DNA of 64,000 nt from a virus. Its lineage: Duplodnaviria; Caudoviricetes. How positions within the stretch are numbered: the stretch's first letter is position 1; every line of letters starts with the position of its first letter. Positions 6,025-45,852 of the stretch are shown piece after piece. The translations under genes and the position numbers were made by a program. The notes beneath the pieces were generated by a model. It was given only the letters and a program-made list of their open reading frames with translations. It was not told where the DNA came from and made no database searches. The stretch covers positions 21,120-85,119 of IMG/VR virus record IMGVR_UViG_3300033076_001357, one strand, 5' to 3'.

Positions 6025-6096
6025 TGCCACCAACAGGACTCGAACCTGTGCCTCGGCTGTTTCAGAGCCGCGCTCTACCAACTGAGCTATGGTGGC
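6025..6096 (-). tRNA. tRNA-Phe (GAA)
   Basis: Full cloverleaf: GCCACCA/TGGTGGC, D-arm GCTC-AGTTGGTA-GAGC, CGGCT-CTGAAAC-AGCCG, T-loop TTCGAGT; CCA not encoded. Confidence 0.92.
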
Positions 6097-6150
6097 GGAT
6101 GGAAAGCGGCAGTTATCGCCGCGCCACTCCGCAAACGATAACTGCCGCAG

Positions 6151-6238
6151 TGTGCCGGACGGGAATCGAACCCGCATCTGTGAGTGTCTCAGCCAGGTCC
6201 TACCTCTGGCTTCACCGTCTTACTTAGACCACCGGCAC
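6151..6238 (-). ncRNA. tRNA-like RNA with an extra hairpin in place of the anticodon loop
   Basis: Acceptor GTGCCGG/CCGGCAC-A, D-like GTCT/AGAC, T-arm GCGGG-TTCGATT-CCCGT; the anticodon arm carries AGCCAG-AGGTAGGAC-CTGGCT. Confidence 0.65.
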
Positions 6239-6287
6239 CGCCCGGCTCCTAGGCGCCGGGCCAGGTCGGGTGTGCCTTCCCGACCAG

Positions 6288-6418
6288 TGAGCGGGGCAGG
6301 AATCGAACCTACCTAGGCGGGCTGCCGCCCTATTTGCCTCCAAGGTGAAGGGGAATCGAACCCCACACCCCACCCAGGGGAACCCGGAATCGAACCGGAT
6401 ACCTTATCCACTCCGCTC
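6288..6418 (-). ncRNA. Structured RNA with three identical GGTTCGATTCC T-loop hairpins closed by GAGCGG/CCGCTC
   Basis: Hand folding of the reverse complement. Confidence 0.6.
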
Positions 6419-6441
6419 TCGCTGTTGAGTTGTTGTGCTAG

Positions 6442-6517
6442 TGGACCCGGCGGGATTCGAACCCGCTACGCGCGCTATCACCAGCCGCCGGGTGCACATC
6501 CGGCAGACGACGGGCCC
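6442..6517 (-). ncRNA. 76-nt tRNA-like RNA with non-canonical D and anticodon arms
   Basis: Acceptor GGGCCCG/CGGGTCC-A and T-arm GCGGG-TTCGAAT-CCCGC are intact; the middle does not fit a cloverleaf. Confidence 0.55.
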
Positions 6518-6524
6518 AGGAACG

Positions 6525-6689
6525 TTAGTTGGTCTTGACGGGCTTCTTGCACTTACCCCGACCACAGGGGGCCGGGTCGTGGCGCTGGCCGCACGGCCGG
6601 ACCTTCCACGCCTTGCCGCTACGGCGCTCGGTGTTGGTGGCGACGGCGACGGCCTTCTTCCCGCCCCCGCCGGAGTTCTTCTTTGCCAC
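6525..6689 (-). CDS. 54-aa Lys/Arg-rich peptide with a C-terminal Cys/His cluster
   Basis: RBS AGAAAGGAG, GTG at 6689, TAA at 6525-6527; MAKKNSGGGGKKAVAVATNTERRSGKAWKVRPCGQRHDPAPCGRGKCKKPVKTN. Below the ORF-track cutoff. Confidence 0.65.
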   Translation of the reverse strand: MAKKNSGGGGKKAVAVATNTERRSGKAWKVRPCGQRHDPAPCGRGKCKKPVKTN

Positions 6690-6727
6690 GTGACGCTCCT
6701 TTCTGACGACTGACTGACACCACGGGG

Positions 6728-6851
6728 GGGACGGAGCGGGATTCGAACCCGCATCTGTTGCCAGGGACCGGGACAGCCCACCCGAGGAGATCCGCTCCCT
6801 TTGTGGGGCCCCTGACGTGCGCTTCCGCTCTACCGTTTGAGCTATCCGTCC
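6728..6851 (-). ncRNA. 124-nt tRNA-like RNA with canonical acceptor, D and T arms and a long nested hairpin replacing the anticodon arm
   Basis: GGACGGA/TCCGTCC; TA-GCTC-AAACGGTA-GAGC; GCGGG-TTCGAAT-CCCGC; insert closed by GTCAGGG/CCCTGGC. Confidence 0.7.
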
Positions 6852-6910
6852 AACCGGGACGCGACTTCCGCCGCGTCCCTAGCACCGGGGGGGGCTCGGT
6901 GCATACACCT

Positions 6911-6940
6911 ATTGTAGCATAGGACTTGTCTACGGCACAA
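6911..6940 (-). promoter_or_regulatory. Sigma70/HrdB-like promoter for the tRNA-like cluster
   Basis: TTGTGC-N18-TACAAT with an extended TG. Confidence 0.65.
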
Positions 6941-43578: not shown

Positions 43579-43755
43579 TTAGCTGGCCTTGTCGACACTG
43601 TTGGCCAGCACTCCGGCCAGGTCCCGGACCAGGTCGGCCCGTAGCTGGTTGAGCAGCGGGACCAGGTCGTCGTGGACCGCCTTGGCCACCAGCTCGGCGT
43701 CGTGCTCGGCCAGTCCCGCCACGCGCTGCAGCGCGTCCTTGATGCCGTGGAACAT
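43579..43755 (-). CDS. 58-aa helical protein
   Basis: AAGGAG RBS, ATG at 43755, TAA at 43579-43581 (MFHGIKDALQRVAG...). Confidence 0.55.
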   Translation of the reverse strand: MFHGIKDALQRVAGLAEHDAELVAKAVHDDLVPLLNQLRADLVRDLAGVLANSVDKAS

Positions 43756-43822
43756 GGGGCCACTCCTTGGTAGACGAAGCTAGTGACTCCATTAAACCGT
43801 GCTGTCGTCCTGACAGCTACTG

Positions 43823-43906
43823 TGGTGCCGCCGGGGGGATTCGAACCCCCACGCCTAAGCACTAGTTCCTAAGACTAGCGTGTCTGCCAAGTTCCACCAC
43901 GGCGGC
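43823..43906 (-). tRNA. tRNA-Leu (TAG)
   Basis: GCCGCCG/CGGCGGC-A-CCA; CTAGT-CTTAGGA-ACTAG; long variable arm. Confidence 0.93.
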
Positions 43907-43911
43907 CTGAA

Positions 43912-43984
43912 TCGGGACGGGGGGACTCGAACCCCCGACAACCCGCTCCCAAAGCGGGTGTCCTAGCCGCTGGACCACGTCCCG
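43912..43984 (-). tRNA. tRNA-Pro (TGG)
   Basis: CGGGACG/CGTCCCG; CCCGC-TTTGGGA-GCGGG; T-loop TTCGAGT. Confidence 0.93.
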
Positions 43985-43985
43985 G

Positions 43986-44059
43986 TCGACCCCCCAGGAG
44001 TTGAACCTGGTACCTTCACCTTATCAGGGTGACGCTCTACCTGCTTGAGCTAGAGGTCG
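43986..44059 (-). tRNA. tRNA-Ile (GAT)
   Basis: CGACCTC/GGGGTCG; TCACC-CTGATAA-GGTGA; T-loop TTCAACT. Confidence 0.92.
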
Positions 44060-44097
44060 TGGCGCCCGACGGGGACCATATCCATTCCCCGCCGGGC
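44060..44097 (-). ncRNA. Minihelix-like RNA: 12-bp stem plus G-CCA, abutting the tRNA-Ile 5' end
   Basis: GCCCGGCGGGGA-ATGGATATGG-TCCCCGTCGGGC-G-CCA. Confidence 0.55.
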
Positions 44098-44131
44098 TTT
44101 TAAAACGATAATCGTCGTTTAGAGGTCTACC

Positions 44132-44300
44132 ACCCGATCAAGCACATTTAAAGACACCGGTCACGCCTCACGCAATACCGCTATACCATTAAGCGTACCC
44201 GACCGAGGATGGTTCTGCTCAGTTAAGAGCCGAGGTCGGGGCGGGAGTCGAACCCGCAACTTATTGCAACAGCCAATGTCTGGTCGATCTCGATGGGGGC
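44132..44300 (-). ncRNA. Circularly permuted tRNA-like module 2 (YrlA/Y-RNA-like topology)
   Basis: T-arm 44257-44241, then CCCGACC...GGTCGGG, then TA plus D-arm CGCT-TAATGGTAT-AGCG; ends pair via GCAATA/TATTGC, AGACATTGG/CCGGTGTCT and ATCGAG/CTTGAT. Confidence 0.75.
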
Positions 44301-44337
44301 GTACTGCTGAGTCTAGAGCGATAGCCTTAGTCTTTTT

Positions 44338-44423
44338 GCCTGGTCGCTGCCTCTGCTTTGGGCTACCCGGGCTCGATTGGTGCCCGGGGCAGGTCTCGCA
44401 CCTGCACTGTAACGATGTCGGCG
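44338..44423 (-). ncRNA. Circularly permuted tRNA-like module 1
   Basis: T-like arm GCAGG-TGCGAGA-CCTGC, then CCCGGGC-ACCAATCGA-GCCCGGG, then TA plus GCC-CAAAGCAGA-GGC; closing TCGTT/AGCGA. Confidence 0.7.
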
Positions 44424-44532
44424 TGAGTCTGTAGCTTCAGTCTGAGACTCTTACCCGGTCGCTCAAACCGGGGGAGCGGCGTTCGTCACGGGTACGAACA
44501 CCACCCTCCGACCTGAGTGAGCGAGGCTCGTG

Positions 44533-45270
44533 TCAGCTGAACAGCAGCCAGCCCAGAACGGCCTGACCGATGTGCTGCTGCGTGACCTGGACGGAGTTGG
44601 CCTCCTCGCGCGCGTGCTTGACGGCGTCCTGGAGAAGGTGAACCCGGTTCAGCAGCTGATCGACCCGGGCGGCCGGAACCGCTCCGGAGAACTTGGTGAG
44701 GGTCCAGTACCCCACCGTCTGGTCCTCAGAGTAGACCTCGACCTGCGCCGGGTGGCGGTCGGTGGCCTCGGCCTTGACGTGGTTGCGGAAGACCTTCTTG
44801 GTCTTGTTGGTCTCGATCGGCTCGGTCTTCCACAGGTTGAGCTGGTCGTCGAACCGCCAGCTCTCGGCCGGGTCGAGAGTGGGGAGCTTCGCCAGGAAGG
44901 TGGCGATGTTCACCAGCTGCTTCTCCAGGAACAGCAGGTAGGTGACCGGCACCGCGTGGGCCAGCACCGCCCCGCCTACCACCACGTCGGCCACGGCCGA
45001 CTGGTTGGCGGTCTCCTTGGTGTAGGTGACGTCGAACAGGTTGACCAGACTGTCGGCCACCTTCCGGATGACGTCGTCGACTCGGACCTGGACCTTGACC
45101 GACTCGGGCGGGTAGACGTCCCCGTCCTCGAACTTCGGTCGGTAGGTCCGGCTCAGACCAGAGGTCAGCGCGGACTTCTGAAGCTGGTGGTGAGCGGCGG
45201 TCAGTTCCTTCTCGGTGCGGCTCTTGACGCCGCTCTCGGCGGCAATGATCTGGTTGAGTCGAGTCGACAT
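44533..45270 (-). CDS. 245-aa hypothetical protein directly upstream of the permuted tRNA-like RNAs
   Basis: Clean codon usage and its own promoter (45316-45345). Motifs RLNQIIA, VPVTYLLFLEKQL and RNHVKAEATDRHPAQVEVY resemble a family I recall from Actinobacteria (unverified). Confidence 0.85.
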   Translation of the reverse strand: MSTRLNQIIAAESGVKSRTEKELTAAHHQLQKSALTSGLSRTYRPKFEDGDVYPPESVKVQVRVDDVIRKVADSLVNLFDVTYTKETANQSAVADVVVGGAVLAHAVPVTYLLFLEKQLVNIATFLAKLPTLDPAESWRFDDQLNLWKTEPIETNKTKKVFRNHVKAEATDRHPAQVEVYSEDQTVGYWTLTKFSGAVPAARVDQLLNRVHLLQDAVKHAREEANSVQVTQQHIGQAVLGWLLFS

Positions 45271-45315
45271 CAGTCTGGTGCTCCAGCTTGTCCCTGCTTG
45301 CTGCTTACAGGGACA

Positions 45316-45345
45316 AGTATACCACGCCACATGCCGCTGGCGCAA
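45316..45345 (-). promoter_or_regulatory. Sigma70-like promoter of the protein + ncRNA + tRNA cassette
   Basis: TTGCGC-N18-TATACT with TGG extension; insulated upstream by a 12-bp hairpin at 45348-45374. Confidence 0.7.
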
Positions 45346-45381
45346 TAGCGCCCCCGACAGGTTGTCGGGGGCGCCCGGCCA

Positions 45382-45852
45382 TCAGCCGGTCAGCTCCTCC
45401 AGGTCCAGCCCCTGCCGGGCCAGTTCCTCGGTAAGCGCGGCGATCTGGCTGTCGATCTGGTCCATGGTGGTGATCTCAAGCTTGGTGGTGGCGTCCAGAC
45501 CCAGTAGCTTGGCCCGGCGCTCACACAGCTTGATGGCGATCTCCACCGCCCGGGGCACTCCCCGCTGGATACCCGGGTTCAGAGCCAGCAGCATCTGGTC
45601 CAGCCTGCGCAGCTCGATCTCACGGTAGATGTCCACCGCGTGATCCTGGGCGACGATGGACTGTTCCAGCGCCCTGTTGATGTCCAGGCTGGCCGCCCGG
45701 ACGTTCGGGTACTCCAGGGCCAGGGTGATGGCCTCCAGACTGTACCCGTCGACTCGCATCTGTACCGCCTGGGCCCTACGGTCGGCGGTCTGGGCGCTGA
45801 TAGCGGTCTGAACCGTGGCGGTGGCCCCCTCAGGGGGCATCTTACGTGGCAT
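45382..45852 (-). CDS. Terminase small subunit-like protein
   Basis: N-terminal HTH (RRAQAVQMRVDGYSLEAI), ELRRLDQM, ERRAKLLGLDA. Confidence 0.75.
   Translation of the reverse strand: MPRKMPPEGATATVQTAISAQTADRRAQAVQMRVDGYSLEAITLALEYPNVRAASLDINRALEQSIVAQDHAVDIYREIELRRLDQMLLALNPGIQRGVPRAVEIAIKLCERRAKLLGLDATTKLEITTMDQIDSQIAALTEELARQGLDLEELTG

What the first reader, a model, noticed from the sequence alone, without database searches (positions are those of the whole stretch)
44338..44423. Permuted module 1 hides an A-CCA in the loop closing its acceptor stem
Seen: CCCGGGC-A-CCA-ATCGA-GCCCGGG. Established: two-piece tmRNAs are matured by RNase P cleavage and 3' trimming of such an intervening loop. 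Inference: this module could be cut into a two-piece RNA with a free CCA end. Its G1-C72/C2-G71/C3-G70/A73 pattern matches the neighbouring tRNA-Leu rather than Ala (no G3:U70). A short downstream ORF (GCA AAA AGA CTA AGG CTA TCG CTC TAG, AKRLRLSL*) lies where a tmRNA tag would, but it does not end in the usual AA.
Basis: partly seen in the sequence, partly recalled or inferred. Interest (0 to 1): 0.7.

Follow-up and report, generated by a model that had tools for sequence, protein, structure and literature searches.

The report
CCA-capped tRNA-mimic head beside DUF7873
The flagged hairpin is real, but it is one of two back-to-front tRNA look-alike heads in a ~470-base phage RNA that follows an uncharacterised gene (DUF7873); it is not a tmRNA, although its built-in A-CCA and 7-pair stem make it a credible candidate for being cut open by tRNA-processing enzymes.

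Summary
Observation confirmed, on the minus strand: T arm (44405-44389), a perfect 7-bp acceptor-like stem (44388-44382 / 44372-44366) closed by the loop A-CCA-AUCGA (44381-44373), then UA and a D arm (44363-44349).

This is head 1 of a non-coding RNA with two such heads, lying between a DUF7873 gene and three tRNA genes. The gene-RNA pair recurred in every phage and bacterial DUF7873 locus I inspected in detail, and both heads were found in 98 of 160 fetched loci. This scan has reported it many times on other DNA. I found it in neither Rfam nor the papers I could search.

The CCA is more than chance. N-CCA directly follows the acceptor 3' strand in 28 of 87 distinct head-1 and 25 of 73 distinct head-2 sequences (chance 1 in 64). 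It is commoner there than in genuine tRNA genes of the same phage loci (36/78 against 24/188).

The stem is 7 bp with an unpaired position 73. That is the feature which lets RNase P cut Mycobacterium smegmatis YrlA in vivo before a CCA end is completed (Chen et al. 2014). The two-piece idea is therefore plausible (about 45%) but untested.

The tmRNA reading fails. The short ORF is the 3' strand of the closing helix, and its stop codon is kept in 13 of 46 relatives. The likeness to tRNA-Leu holds for the family, but this copy has a degraded elbow.

The parts
44533..45270 (-). DUF7873 gene (245 aa), immediately upstream of the RNA on the same strand
   Evidence: Pfam PF25283, E 3.5e-101. The 245-aa form is P0001. 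51% identical to Racecar gp145. The AF2 model has pLDDT 94.5 with no convincing solved-fold match.
44062..44532 (-). Whole non-coding stretch holding the double tRNA-mimic RNA, from the DUF7873 stop to a terminal hairpin just before tRNA-Ile; the transcript ends are inferred, not mapped
   Evidence: MFE z-score -2.78. Homologous RNA follows DUF7873 in Racecar and in the Gordonia, Klebsiella, Rhizobium, Ralstonia, Vibrio and cyanophage loci and the Streptomyces, Kutzneria and Ktedonobacter loci.
44411..44450 (-). 5' strand of the long bulged helix that closes head 1 (takes the place of the anticodon arm)
   Evidence: Pairs end to end with 44349-44305 in the MFE fold and in cofold. The flanks pair better than shuffles (z < -2) in 29/46 relatives.
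44389..44405 (-). Head 1 T arm: GCAGG-UGCGAGA-CCUGC; the T loop has G where the 45 aligned relatives have U55
   Evidence: Stem pairs covary. The column is T in every other row of alignment A2.
44366..44388 (-). Head 1 acceptor-like stem (7 bp) with closing loop A73-C74-C75-A76-AUCGA; predicted RNase P site between 44373 and 44372, predicted mature 3' end at 44378
   Evidence: all 7 pairs show compensatory changes. The loop is identical in Racecar.
44349..44365 (-). UA plus head 1 D arm GCCC-AAAGCAGA-GGC; lacks the GG (G18 G19) that relatives keep
   Evidence: The strict Leu-type D-arm pattern is met by 94/98 relatives but not by this copy.
44313..44339 (-).
   Evidence: Stop kept in 13/46, first codon in 3/46. 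Base-paired. Block conservation is shown.
44179..44257 (-). Head 2: T arm GCGGG-UUCGACU-CCCGC, 7-bp stem CCCGACC/GGUCGGG closed by a 29-nt loop starting U-CGG (no CCA), UA, D arm
   Evidence: Rfam YrlA sub-threshold hit of 30.9 bits over 44148-44282.
43823..44059 (-). tRNA-Ile(GAU), tRNA-Pro(UGG) and tRNA-Leu(UAG) directly downstream on the same strand; possibly one transcript with the RNA
   Evidence: ARAGORN and Rfam. No sigma-70-type promoter or intrinsic terminator is detected between them.

Best explanation
The flagged element is head 1 of a non-coding RNA, about 470 nt between gene stop and terminal hairpin, encoded right after a DUF7873 gene and just before three tRNA genes. The RNA carries two circularly permuted tRNA look-alikes. 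Each has a T arm, a 7-bp acceptor-like stem closed by a loop, and a D arm, and each sits on a long bulged helix in place of an anticodon arm. Head 1 is tRNA-Leu-like at family level (A73, Leu-type D arm). Its loop begins with the encoded tRNA 3' end, A-CCA. Proposed mechanism (inferred, not shown): the RNA is transcribed with or just after the DUF7873 mRNA. Host RNase P recognises the 12-bp acceptor/T-stem stack and cuts 5' of G44372. 3' exonucleases remove AUCGA back to the CCA at 44378, with the CCA-adding enzyme repairing or completing the end in relatives that encode only C74. The result would be a nicked two-piece RNA, held together by the acceptor stem and the closing helix, with a free tRNA-like CCA end. 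That end would protect the RNA from exonucleases and present a tRNA-type end to tRNA-binding factors. DUF7873 is the presumed protein partner. It is not a tmRNA and has no tag ORF.
For: Identity of the element (strong). A DUF7873 gene lies directly upstream. The same gene-plus-RNA arrangement with two heads occurs in Arthrobacter, Gordonia, Klebsiella and Ralstonia phages and a Pseudanabaena cyanophage; Vibrio and Rhizobium phages showed one head by my finder. It also occurs in Streptomyces, Kutzneria and Ktedonobacter chromosomes. Both heads were found in 98 of 160 further loci. T, acceptor and D stems covary. Sub-threshold YrlA hits fall in the gap after DUF7873 in 7 of 10 phage loci. Processing (indirect). 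The stem is exactly 7 bp with unpaired N73 in 62/87 head-1 and 59/73 head-2 sequences. C follows the discriminator in 78 of 87 distinct head-1 and 71 of 73 distinct head-2 sequences, as it does in 174/188 genuine tRNA genes of the same phage loci. Full CCA is present in 36/78 viral heads against 24/188 real tRNA genes (odds ratio 5.9, p 1.4e-8). Apart from N73-C74 and a C-R-N 3' end, loops vary freely in sequence and in length (4-83 nt), as an excised spacer would. Precedent: M. smegmatis YrlA, the YrlA with a 7-bp stem, is cut by RNase P in vitro and in vivo and gains a CCA end, giving two Rsr-bound pieces (PMC4201824; 10.1101/312249).
Against: This copy has a deviant elbow, with G at T-loop position 55 and no G18 G19, which could weaken recognition by RNase P and other elbow readers. 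Some relatives have 4-nt loops, or long loops that pair CCA into a hairpin, which look like poor RNase P substrates. In short loops C at -3 (117/119) and R at -2 (104/119) are conserved, which may instead mean the closed loop is itself a recognised motif. CCA is absent from about two thirds of heads, including head 2 here. The DUF7873-RNA partnership rests on gene linkage only.
Confidence: 0.5

Rival explanations
1. The head stays closed. The A-CCA loop is either a relic of the tRNA gene(s) from which the module arose, or part of a closed-loop motif (consensus N-C-Y-N-C-R-N) that mimics a tRNA end and is read by DUF7873 or another factor without any cut, as proposed for most YrlA RNAs.
For: Wang et al. 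state that most YrlA RNAs probably keep closed acceptor loops. Short loops keep C at -3 and R at -2 in nearly all copies, which RNase P is not known to require (the conservation is; the RNase P point is my own knowledge). 4-nt loops and hairpin-forming long loops exist. This copy's elbow is degraded.
Against: Loop length and most loop positions vary freely among close relatives, which fits a spacer better than a recognition motif. A relic would not stay 20- to 30-fold enriched on 19 different stem sequences. The strict 7-bp length with unpaired N73 matches the one YrlA that is known to be cut.
Confidence: 0.35
2. After opening, head 1 is charged with leucine by the host leucyl-tRNA synthetase and acts as an aminoacylated tRNA mimic, for example as a decoy or acceptor. 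This is a special case of the best explanation.
For: A73 holds in 69/87 head-1 sequences. A D-arm pattern that hits only tRNA-Leu among 188 real phage tRNAs (8/25 Leu, 0/163 others) is present in 94/98 head-1 and 0/98 head-2 copies. Bacterial LeuRS does not read the anticodon (my own knowledge). Chen et al. raise possible aminoacylation of cleaved YrlA.
Against: The pattern was drawn partly from head 1 itself. This copy lacks G18 G19 and U55, which set the tertiary fold that LeuRS reads (my own knowledge). The acceptor pairs are not conserved across the family. There are no charging data.
Confidence: 0.07
3. It is a phage Y RNA (YrlA) that works with the host's Ro60/Rsr protein, with DUF7873 only a neighbour.
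For: The head architecture is the same as YrlA, and the only Rfam hits are YrlA. A GNCGAANG string occurs at 44487-44480. 3 of 5 bacterial carriers tested encode a TROVE protein.
Against: Scores of 18-38 bits fall well under the gathering score of 69. The Ro-binding motif is no more frequent than in shuffles (18/70 against 15.7) and sits at no fixed place. There is no TROVE in this phage. A complete 7.9-Mb Streptomyces genome with the RNA has no TROVE, and where TROVE is present on the same contig it lies 70-110 kb away.
Confidence: 0.07
4. It is a two-piece (permuted) tmRNA whose tag is AKRLRLSL: the first reader's framing.
For: The gene order T arm, acceptor 3' strand, CCA, spacer, acceptor 5' strand is that of permuted tmRNA genes. 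The Rfam beta_tmRNA model gives weak partial hits (20-25 bits, model positions 86-151 only) on relatives.
Against: ARAGORN finds no tmRNA, and no tmRNA family reaches threshold. Position 3:70 is C-G, not G-U. The D stem is real and covaries. There are two heads. The ORF's stop is kept in 13/46 and its first codon in 3/46. The ORF is base-paired in the closing helix.
Confidence: 0.01

Closest known systems
YrlA (Y RNA-like A, Rfam RF02553), especially Mycobacterium smegmatis YrlA (Chen et al. 2014, PMC4201824; Wang et al. 2018, 10.1101/312249)
   Same: A circularly permuted tRNA-like domain (T arm, loop-closed acceptor stem, D arm) sits on a long helix formed by the flanks. Tandem RNAs come from one precursor. 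M. smegmatis YrlA has a 7-bp stem, is opened by RNase P and ends in CCA, which is the fate proposed here.
   Different: No Ro60/Rsr gene is present in the phage. The Ro-binding motif is not conserved. Rfam scores are far below the gathering score. Two heads lie in one ~470-nt unit. The linked gene is DUF7873, not rsr. CCA is often encoded in the loop.
Two-piece (circularly permuted) tmRNA of alpha- and betaproteobacteria and cyanobacteria (Rfam RF01849-RF01851)
   Same: Permuted gene order with the CCA-bearing acceptor piece upstream, a spacer that is removed, and RNase P making the 5' end of the downstream piece.
   Different: No G3:U70, no conserved tag ORF, a genuine D stem, two tRNA-like domains, and no hit by tmRNA detectors.
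Circularly permuted tRNA genes (Cyanidioschyzon merolae and others; cited in 10.1101/312249)
   Same: The acceptor stem is first a closed loop that RNase P and/or RNase Z open. The 3' half is encoded before the 5' half.
   Different: Those precursors contain a real anticodon arm and are circularised and spliced into working tRNAs. Here the anticodon arm is replaced by a long bulged helix and no anticodon loop exists.
DUF7873-linked double tRNA-mimic RNA, as reported repeatedly by this scan on other genomes (for example e1-2703945, e1-3079809, e1-5360782)
   Same: The same gene-RNA pair, the same two-head layout and the same conserved blocks. CCA in the capping loop was noted there too.
   Different: This copy has a deviant head 1 elbow (G55, no G18 G19) and sits directly upstream of tRNA-Ile, tRNA-Pro and tRNA-Leu. 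The family is not in Rfam or in the papers I could search.

Membership tests
Two-piece tmRNA | Recognised by tmRNA detectors (ARAGORN, Rfam tmRNA models) | tested here: not met
   ARAGORN finds no tmRNA. No tmRNA family is listed at E <= 10 in 43700-44700.
Two-piece tmRNA | G3:U70 alanine identity pair in the acceptor stem | tested here: not met
   C3-G70 is read directly from 44370 and 44384. No relative in the listing shows G3:U70 as a rule.
Two-piece tmRNA | Conserved tag reading frame with a resume codon and a stop | tested here: not met
   Stop kept in 13/46, GCA in 3/46, and the frame runs on for 19 or more codons in most bacterial relatives. The segment is paired in the closing helix.
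YrlA / bacterial Y RNA (RF02553) | Permuted tRNA-like domain: T arm, loop-closed acceptor-like stem, D arm | tested here: met
YrlA / bacterial Y RNA (RF02553) | Reaches the Rfam gathering score (69 bits) | tested here: not met
   18.4 bits on head 1 and 30.9 bits on head 2. Relatives score 24-38 bits.
YrlA / bacterial Y RNA (RF02553) | Conserved Ro-binding helix motif GNCGAAN0-1G | tested here: not met
   Present in 18/70 family RNAs at scattered positions against 15.7 expected from shuffles. There is one copy in the window, in a 5' hairpin.
YrlA / bacterial Y RNA (RF02553) | Encoded next to rsr (Ro60, TROVE domain) | tested here: not met
   No TROVE in the 85-kb phage record. In bacterial carriers TROVE is absent (2 of 5) or, where on the same contig, 70-110 kb away.
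YrlA / bacterial Y RNA (RF02553) | Bound by Rsr in vivo | not testable with these tools
   Needs immunoprecipitation.
RNase P-opened tRNA mimic (M. smegmatis YrlA type) | Seven-base-pair acceptor stem stacked on a 5-bp T stem, with unpaired discriminator | tested here: met
   7/7 pairs here. The stem is exactly 7 bp with unpaired N73 in 62/87 head-1 sequences. The criterion is taken from PMC4201824.
RNase P-opened tRNA mimic (M. smegmatis YrlA type) | Cleavage at +1 and a CCA 3' end in vivo | not testable with these tools
DUF7873-linked double tRNA-mimic RNA (undescribed; defined by this scan) | Lies directly downstream of a DUF7873 gene on the same strand | tested here: met
DUF7873-linked double tRNA-mimic RNA (undescribed; defined by this scan) | Two permuted heads 120-340 nt apart, plus the conserved block CUCAGAYUNUCGCUC between them | tested here: met
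   The heads' T arms start at 44405 and 44257. The block aligns.
DUF7873-linked double tRNA-mimic RNA (undescribed; defined by this scan) | Head 1 has A73 and a Leu-type D arm with G18 G19, plus a U54-U55-C56 T loop | tested here: inconclusive
   A73 is met. The D arm lacks GG and the T loop reads UGC, so this copy departs from 94/98 relatives.
Circularly permuted tRNA gene | An anticodon arm with a 7-nt loop can be assembled from the flanks | tested here: not met
   The flanks form a long bulged helix of more than 30 nt per strand with no anticodon loop.

The most novel reading that the evidence does not exclude
Head 1 is opened by RNase P to expose its encoded A-CCA and is then charged with leucine, making the DUF7873 RNA a two-piece, aminoacylated, anticodon-less tRNA-Leu mimic. 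Phages would carry it inside their tRNA operons, and its charged end would be the working part, for example as a decoy for defence toxins that attack tRNA 3' ends or as an amino-acid donor.
Probability: 0.06. Interest if true: 0.9.

Novelty: new variant of a known kind. Interest (0 to 1): 0.55.

Why it matters
Only one class of bacterial RNA with this inside-out tRNA shape is known, the YrlA Y RNAs, and it is defined by its partner Ro60. Here the same shape is doubled. It travels with a different and very widespread protein of unknown fold and function (2280 clusters at 50% identity). It sits inside phage tRNA operons.

The specific point of this finding adds a concrete, cheap test to a system that so far rests on gene linkage only. 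That point is an encoded CCA, a strict 7-bp stem, and a trailer that starts like those of real tRNA genes. End-mapping in a cultured phage such as Racecar or GodonK would show whether the RNA is a nicked, CCA-ended two-piece molecule.

If it is, tRNA-processing enzymes are part of its biogenesis. Its free tRNA-like end then becomes the obvious candidate for what the particle does: protection from exonucleases, recruitment of tRNA-binding enzymes, or a decoy for toxins that target tRNA ends. If it stays closed, the conserved N-C...C-R-N loop becomes a candidate protein-binding site.

Tried and rejected
- **Exact-pattern scan.** Scanning IMG/VR for the loop plus D-arm start (CACCAATCGAG-N6-TAGC) gave 19 hits. 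None has the flanking stem, so all are chance.
- **Single-protein locus search.** A search with the DUF7873 protein alone found nothing. An alignment was needed.
- **Self-cleaving ribozymes.** I looked for them in long closing loops of relatives, prompted by scan notes e1-5560811 to e1-5560813 about a twister ribozyme. There were none in 11 loci at E <= 0.5, so I could not check that note.
- **Column-wise covariation of the outer helix.** The window's subsequence MFE fold mapped onto the MAFFT alignment A2 gave mostly non-pairs, because the flanks are not structurally aligned. I replaced this with per-sequence duplex folding against shuffles.
- **Promoter and terminator scan.** Nothing was found in 43700-45500, so the transcript ends are not defined.
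- **Fold of DUF7873.** Foldseek against the PDB gave no match with E <= 0.001. VIA-align wide gave a best match of 3kdq_A, a protein of unknown function, at Z 9.2 with rmsd 8.2 A. The remaining rows are generic helical hairpins. No function could be inferred.
- **Phage-encoded processing enzymes.** I searched for a CCA-adding enzyme, RtcB and TROVE. None is present.
- **First count of trailer bases in real tRNA genes.** It mis-placed the discriminator in some genes and was redone.
- **Literature.** No paper mentions DUF7873. None of the papers returned by the searches describes this RNA. The jumbo-phage survey mentions only TROVE with its tRNA-like partner.

Full report
**1. What is in the sequence**

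The feature lies on the minus strand. Read 5' to 3' on that strand it has these parts:
- a T arm, GCAGG-UGCGAGA-CCUGC (44405-44389);
- a perfect 7-bp stem, CCCGGGC (44388-44382) with GCCCGGG (44372-44366);
- a 9-nt closing loop, A-CCA-AUCGA (44381-44373);
- UA, then a D arm, GCCC-AAAGCAGA-GGC (44363-44349).

This is tRNA arm order turned inside out.

A second module of the same design follows at 44257-44179. Its loop is 29 nt and starts U-CGG, so it has no CCA.

ARAGORN and Rfam at gathering score call only the three ordinary tRNA genes just downstream: Ile, Pro and Leu at 44059-43823. With relaxed thresholds the only meaningful hits are to YrlA (RF02553). These score 30.9 bits on module 2 and 18.4 bits on module 1, against a gathering score of 69.

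**2. What it belongs to**

The 470-nt ORF-free stretch lies directly after a 245-aa gene of Pfam family DUF7873 (E 3.5e-101).

The only similar DNA among 50,697 phage records is in Arthrobacter phages Racecar, Mimi and Talia1610. There it also sits in the unannotated gap right after their DUF7873 gene, whose product is 51% identical to this one. Racecar has the identical loop ACCAAUCGA, while the stem carries a compensatory G:C to C:G change.

DUF7873 occurs in 75 phage records from very different hosts. I inspected phage loci from Gordonia, Pseudanabaena, Microcoleus, Vibrio, Klebsiella (jumbo), Rhizobium and Ralstonia hosts.
- In all of them the gene is followed by 250-1100 nt without a credible gene, often inside a tRNA gene cluster.
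- Most hold one or two permuted tRNA-like modules.
- The same holds for chromosomal copies in Kutzneria, Streptomyces and Ktedonobacter.

The protein family is large: 2280 clusters at 50% identity, and 5393 proteins with E <= 1e-5 among the 90%-identity clusters.

The earlier notes of this scan show that this pair has already been reported on many other genomes (129 notes in at least 82 genomes). The system-level discovery is therefore not new to the scan. I found it in neither Rfam nor the searchable literature.

**3. Is the CCA more than chance?**

I fetched 80 viral and 80 bacterial DUF7873 loci. I searched the 800 nt after each gene with a simple finder that requires a 5-bp T stem (one mismatch allowed) with a canonical T loop, a 7/7 acceptor stem and a D-arm-like hairpin. 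Both modules were found in 98 loci.

| Distinct sequences | N-CCA directly after the acceptor 3' strand |
|---|---|
| Viral head 1 | 19 of 39 |
| Viral head 2 | 17 of 39 |
| Bacterial head 1 | 9 of 48 |
| Bacterial head 2 | 8 of 34 |

The chance rate is 1 in 64 (p 2e-24 and 5e-8 for the two head-1 sets). In head 1 the CCA sits on 19 different stem sequences, so it has been kept while the stems diverged.

The discriminator is A in 69 of 87 head-1 sequences and U or G in nearly all head-2 sequences.

As a yardstick I took the 188 genuine tRNA genes that ARAGORN finds in the window and the phage loci.
- C follows the discriminator in 174 of them.
- Full CCA is encoded in only 24.

The loops therefore begin as the 3' trailers of real tRNA genes in these phages do. 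Encoded CCA is clearly commoner in the heads (36/78 against 24/188; odds ratio 5.9, p 1.4e-8).

CCA is enriched, not universal. Two thirds of heads lack it, including head 2 of this window.

**4. Could the loop be cut?**

No tool here can show that. The case is indirect.

*For cleavage*
- The stem is exactly 7 bp with an unpaired position 73 in 62/87 head-1 and 59/73 head-2 sequences.
- Chen et al. (PMC4201824) showed that M. smegmatis YrlA has a 7-bp stem and is cut by E. coli M1 RNA in vitro at the tRNA-type site. In vivo it exists as 82-nt and 65-nt halves, the 5' half carrying a completed CCA. YrlAs with other stem lengths were not cut.
- Wang et al. repeat this and add that exonucleolytic nibbling precedes CCA addition (10.1101/312249).
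- Apart from N73-C74 and the last three bases, loop sequence and length (4 to 83 nt) vary freely even among Streptomyces species. That is what one expects of an excised spacer.
- U is the commonest base at -1, as in the real tRNA genes.

*Against cleavage*
- Short loops keep C at -3 (117/119) and a purine at -2 (104/119). I cannot explain this by RNase P, and it may mark a closed-loop motif.
- Some relatives have tetraloops, or long loops in which the CCA is base-paired.
- This window's head 1 is the odd one out in the family. It has G in place of U55 in the T loop and has lost G18 G19 in the D loop, so its elbow is probably weakened.

I put the odds that head 1 of this RNA is opened in vivo at a little under one half.

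**5. The tmRNA part fails**

The short ORF (44339-44313) lies in a strongly conserved nucleotide block, but it is not conserved as an ORF. The aligned triplet is a stop in 13 of 46 relatives and CAG in 22. The first codon GCA is kept in 3. In most bacterial copies the frame runs on for the 19-20 further codons examined.

In the minimum-energy fold and in a two-strand cofold, this block is the 3' strand of a long bulged helix whose 5' strand is 44450-44411. The two flanks pair better than shuffled controls (z < -2) in 29 of 46 relatives.

Four further points go against tmRNA:
- there are two tRNA-like heads;
- the D stem is real and covaries;
- position 3:70 is C-G;
- no tmRNA model reports the region.

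**6. The tRNA-Leu likeness**

The acceptor pairs are not conserved across the family, however.

The D arm is more telling. The pattern U-R-G-Y-S-S-A-A-N(1-4)-G-G-N-A-G-A-S-R-C hits 8 of 25 tRNA-Leu genes and none of 163 other tRNA genes in these phage loci. It is present in 94 of 98 head-1 copies and in none of the head-2 copies.

The pattern was drawn partly from head 1, so only its specificity among real tRNAs is an independent result. This window's copy fails it because the GG is missing.

**7. Relation to Ro60 and Y RNAs**
- The phage has no TROVE gene.
- The Ro-binding motif GNCGAAN0-1G occurs in 18 of 70 family RNAs, at scattered positions, against 15.7 expected by chance.
- Of five bacterial carriers, three have a TROVE protein; in the two where it shares a contig with the DUF7873 locus it lies 70-110 kb away. 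Two have none, one of them a complete 7.9-Mb Streptomyces chromosome.

The RNA therefore works like a YrlA in shape but fails three of the defining features of that family.

**8. The DUF7873 protein**

DUF7873 gives a confident AlphaFold model (pLDDT 94.5) of long helical hairpins packed on a beta sheet. It has no convincing match among solved structures. Its role as the RNA's partner is inferred from linkage only.

**9. Verdict**

- The two-piece, CCA-ended product is a reasonable, testable idea with a published precedent in YrlA.
- The tmRNA and tag reading is refuted.
- Leucine identity is a family-level resemblance that this copy has partly lost.

The wider system looks like an undescribed variant of the Y-RNA theme, and this scan has already reported it many times.

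Noticed in passing
window 6025-6940 (minus strand): A second cluster of tRNA-like elements. Rfam calls a 124-nt 'tRNA' at 6728-6851 (44.5 bits), which implies an insert of about 50 nt. Weak YrlA hits (13-21 bits) tile G000:C1 27169-28001, which is window 6050-6882, beside tRNA-Phe and a tRNA-Leu.
   Followed up: no
window 44480-44487 (minus strand), inside the 5' hairpin 44505-44470: The string GACGAACG fits the Ro-binding motif GNCGAAN0-1G of Y RNAs. Across the family the motif is no more frequent than chance, so this copy is probably chance.
   Followed up: yes
closing loops of both heads across loci L044-L203: Short loops (10 nt or fewer) keep C at -3 (117/119) and a purine at -2 (104/119) before the acceptor 5' strand, giving the consensus N-C-Y-N-C-R-N. 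In the window the loop ends C-G-A (44375-44373). I have no explanation for this.
   Followed up: partly
L030 3560-3688 (GodonK gene 151); L036 3512-3591 (FBKp24 'tRNA-Sup-TTA'); L035 3515-3610 (Vibrio phage D491): Small hypothetical CDSs and a 'suppressor tRNA' annotated in GenBank records lie in the RNA gap after DUF7873. GodonK gene 151 and the FBKp24 tRNA call overlap head 2; the D491 CDS overlaps its single head. They are probably annotation artefacts.
   Followed up: partly
L034 3441-3650 (Microcoleus phage My-WqHQDG): A HEARO RNA (RF02033, 129 bits) followed by a 425-aa ORF sits in the gap after the DUF7873 gene. This is probably an inserted IscB/OMEGA-type element.
   Followed up: no
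L030 1-469 (GodonK); L123 1191-1308: Phage tmRNA-like hits lie in the same tRNA clusters as the DUF7873 RNA: 46.8 bits (cut at the locus end) and 33.5 bits. These phages may therefore carry a separate tmRNA, distinct from the tRNA mimic.
   Followed up: no
L033 3235-4398 (Pseudanabaena phage Pam2); L036 (Klebsiella phage FBKp24); L038 (Ralstonia phage RSL1): In phages of Gram-negative hosts and cyanobacteria, head 1 has a D arm almost identical to the tRNA-Leu D arm as I recall it for E. coli (UGGCGGAAUUGGUAGACGC). Long closing loops often fold into hairpins that pair the bases right after the discriminator.
   Followed up: partly
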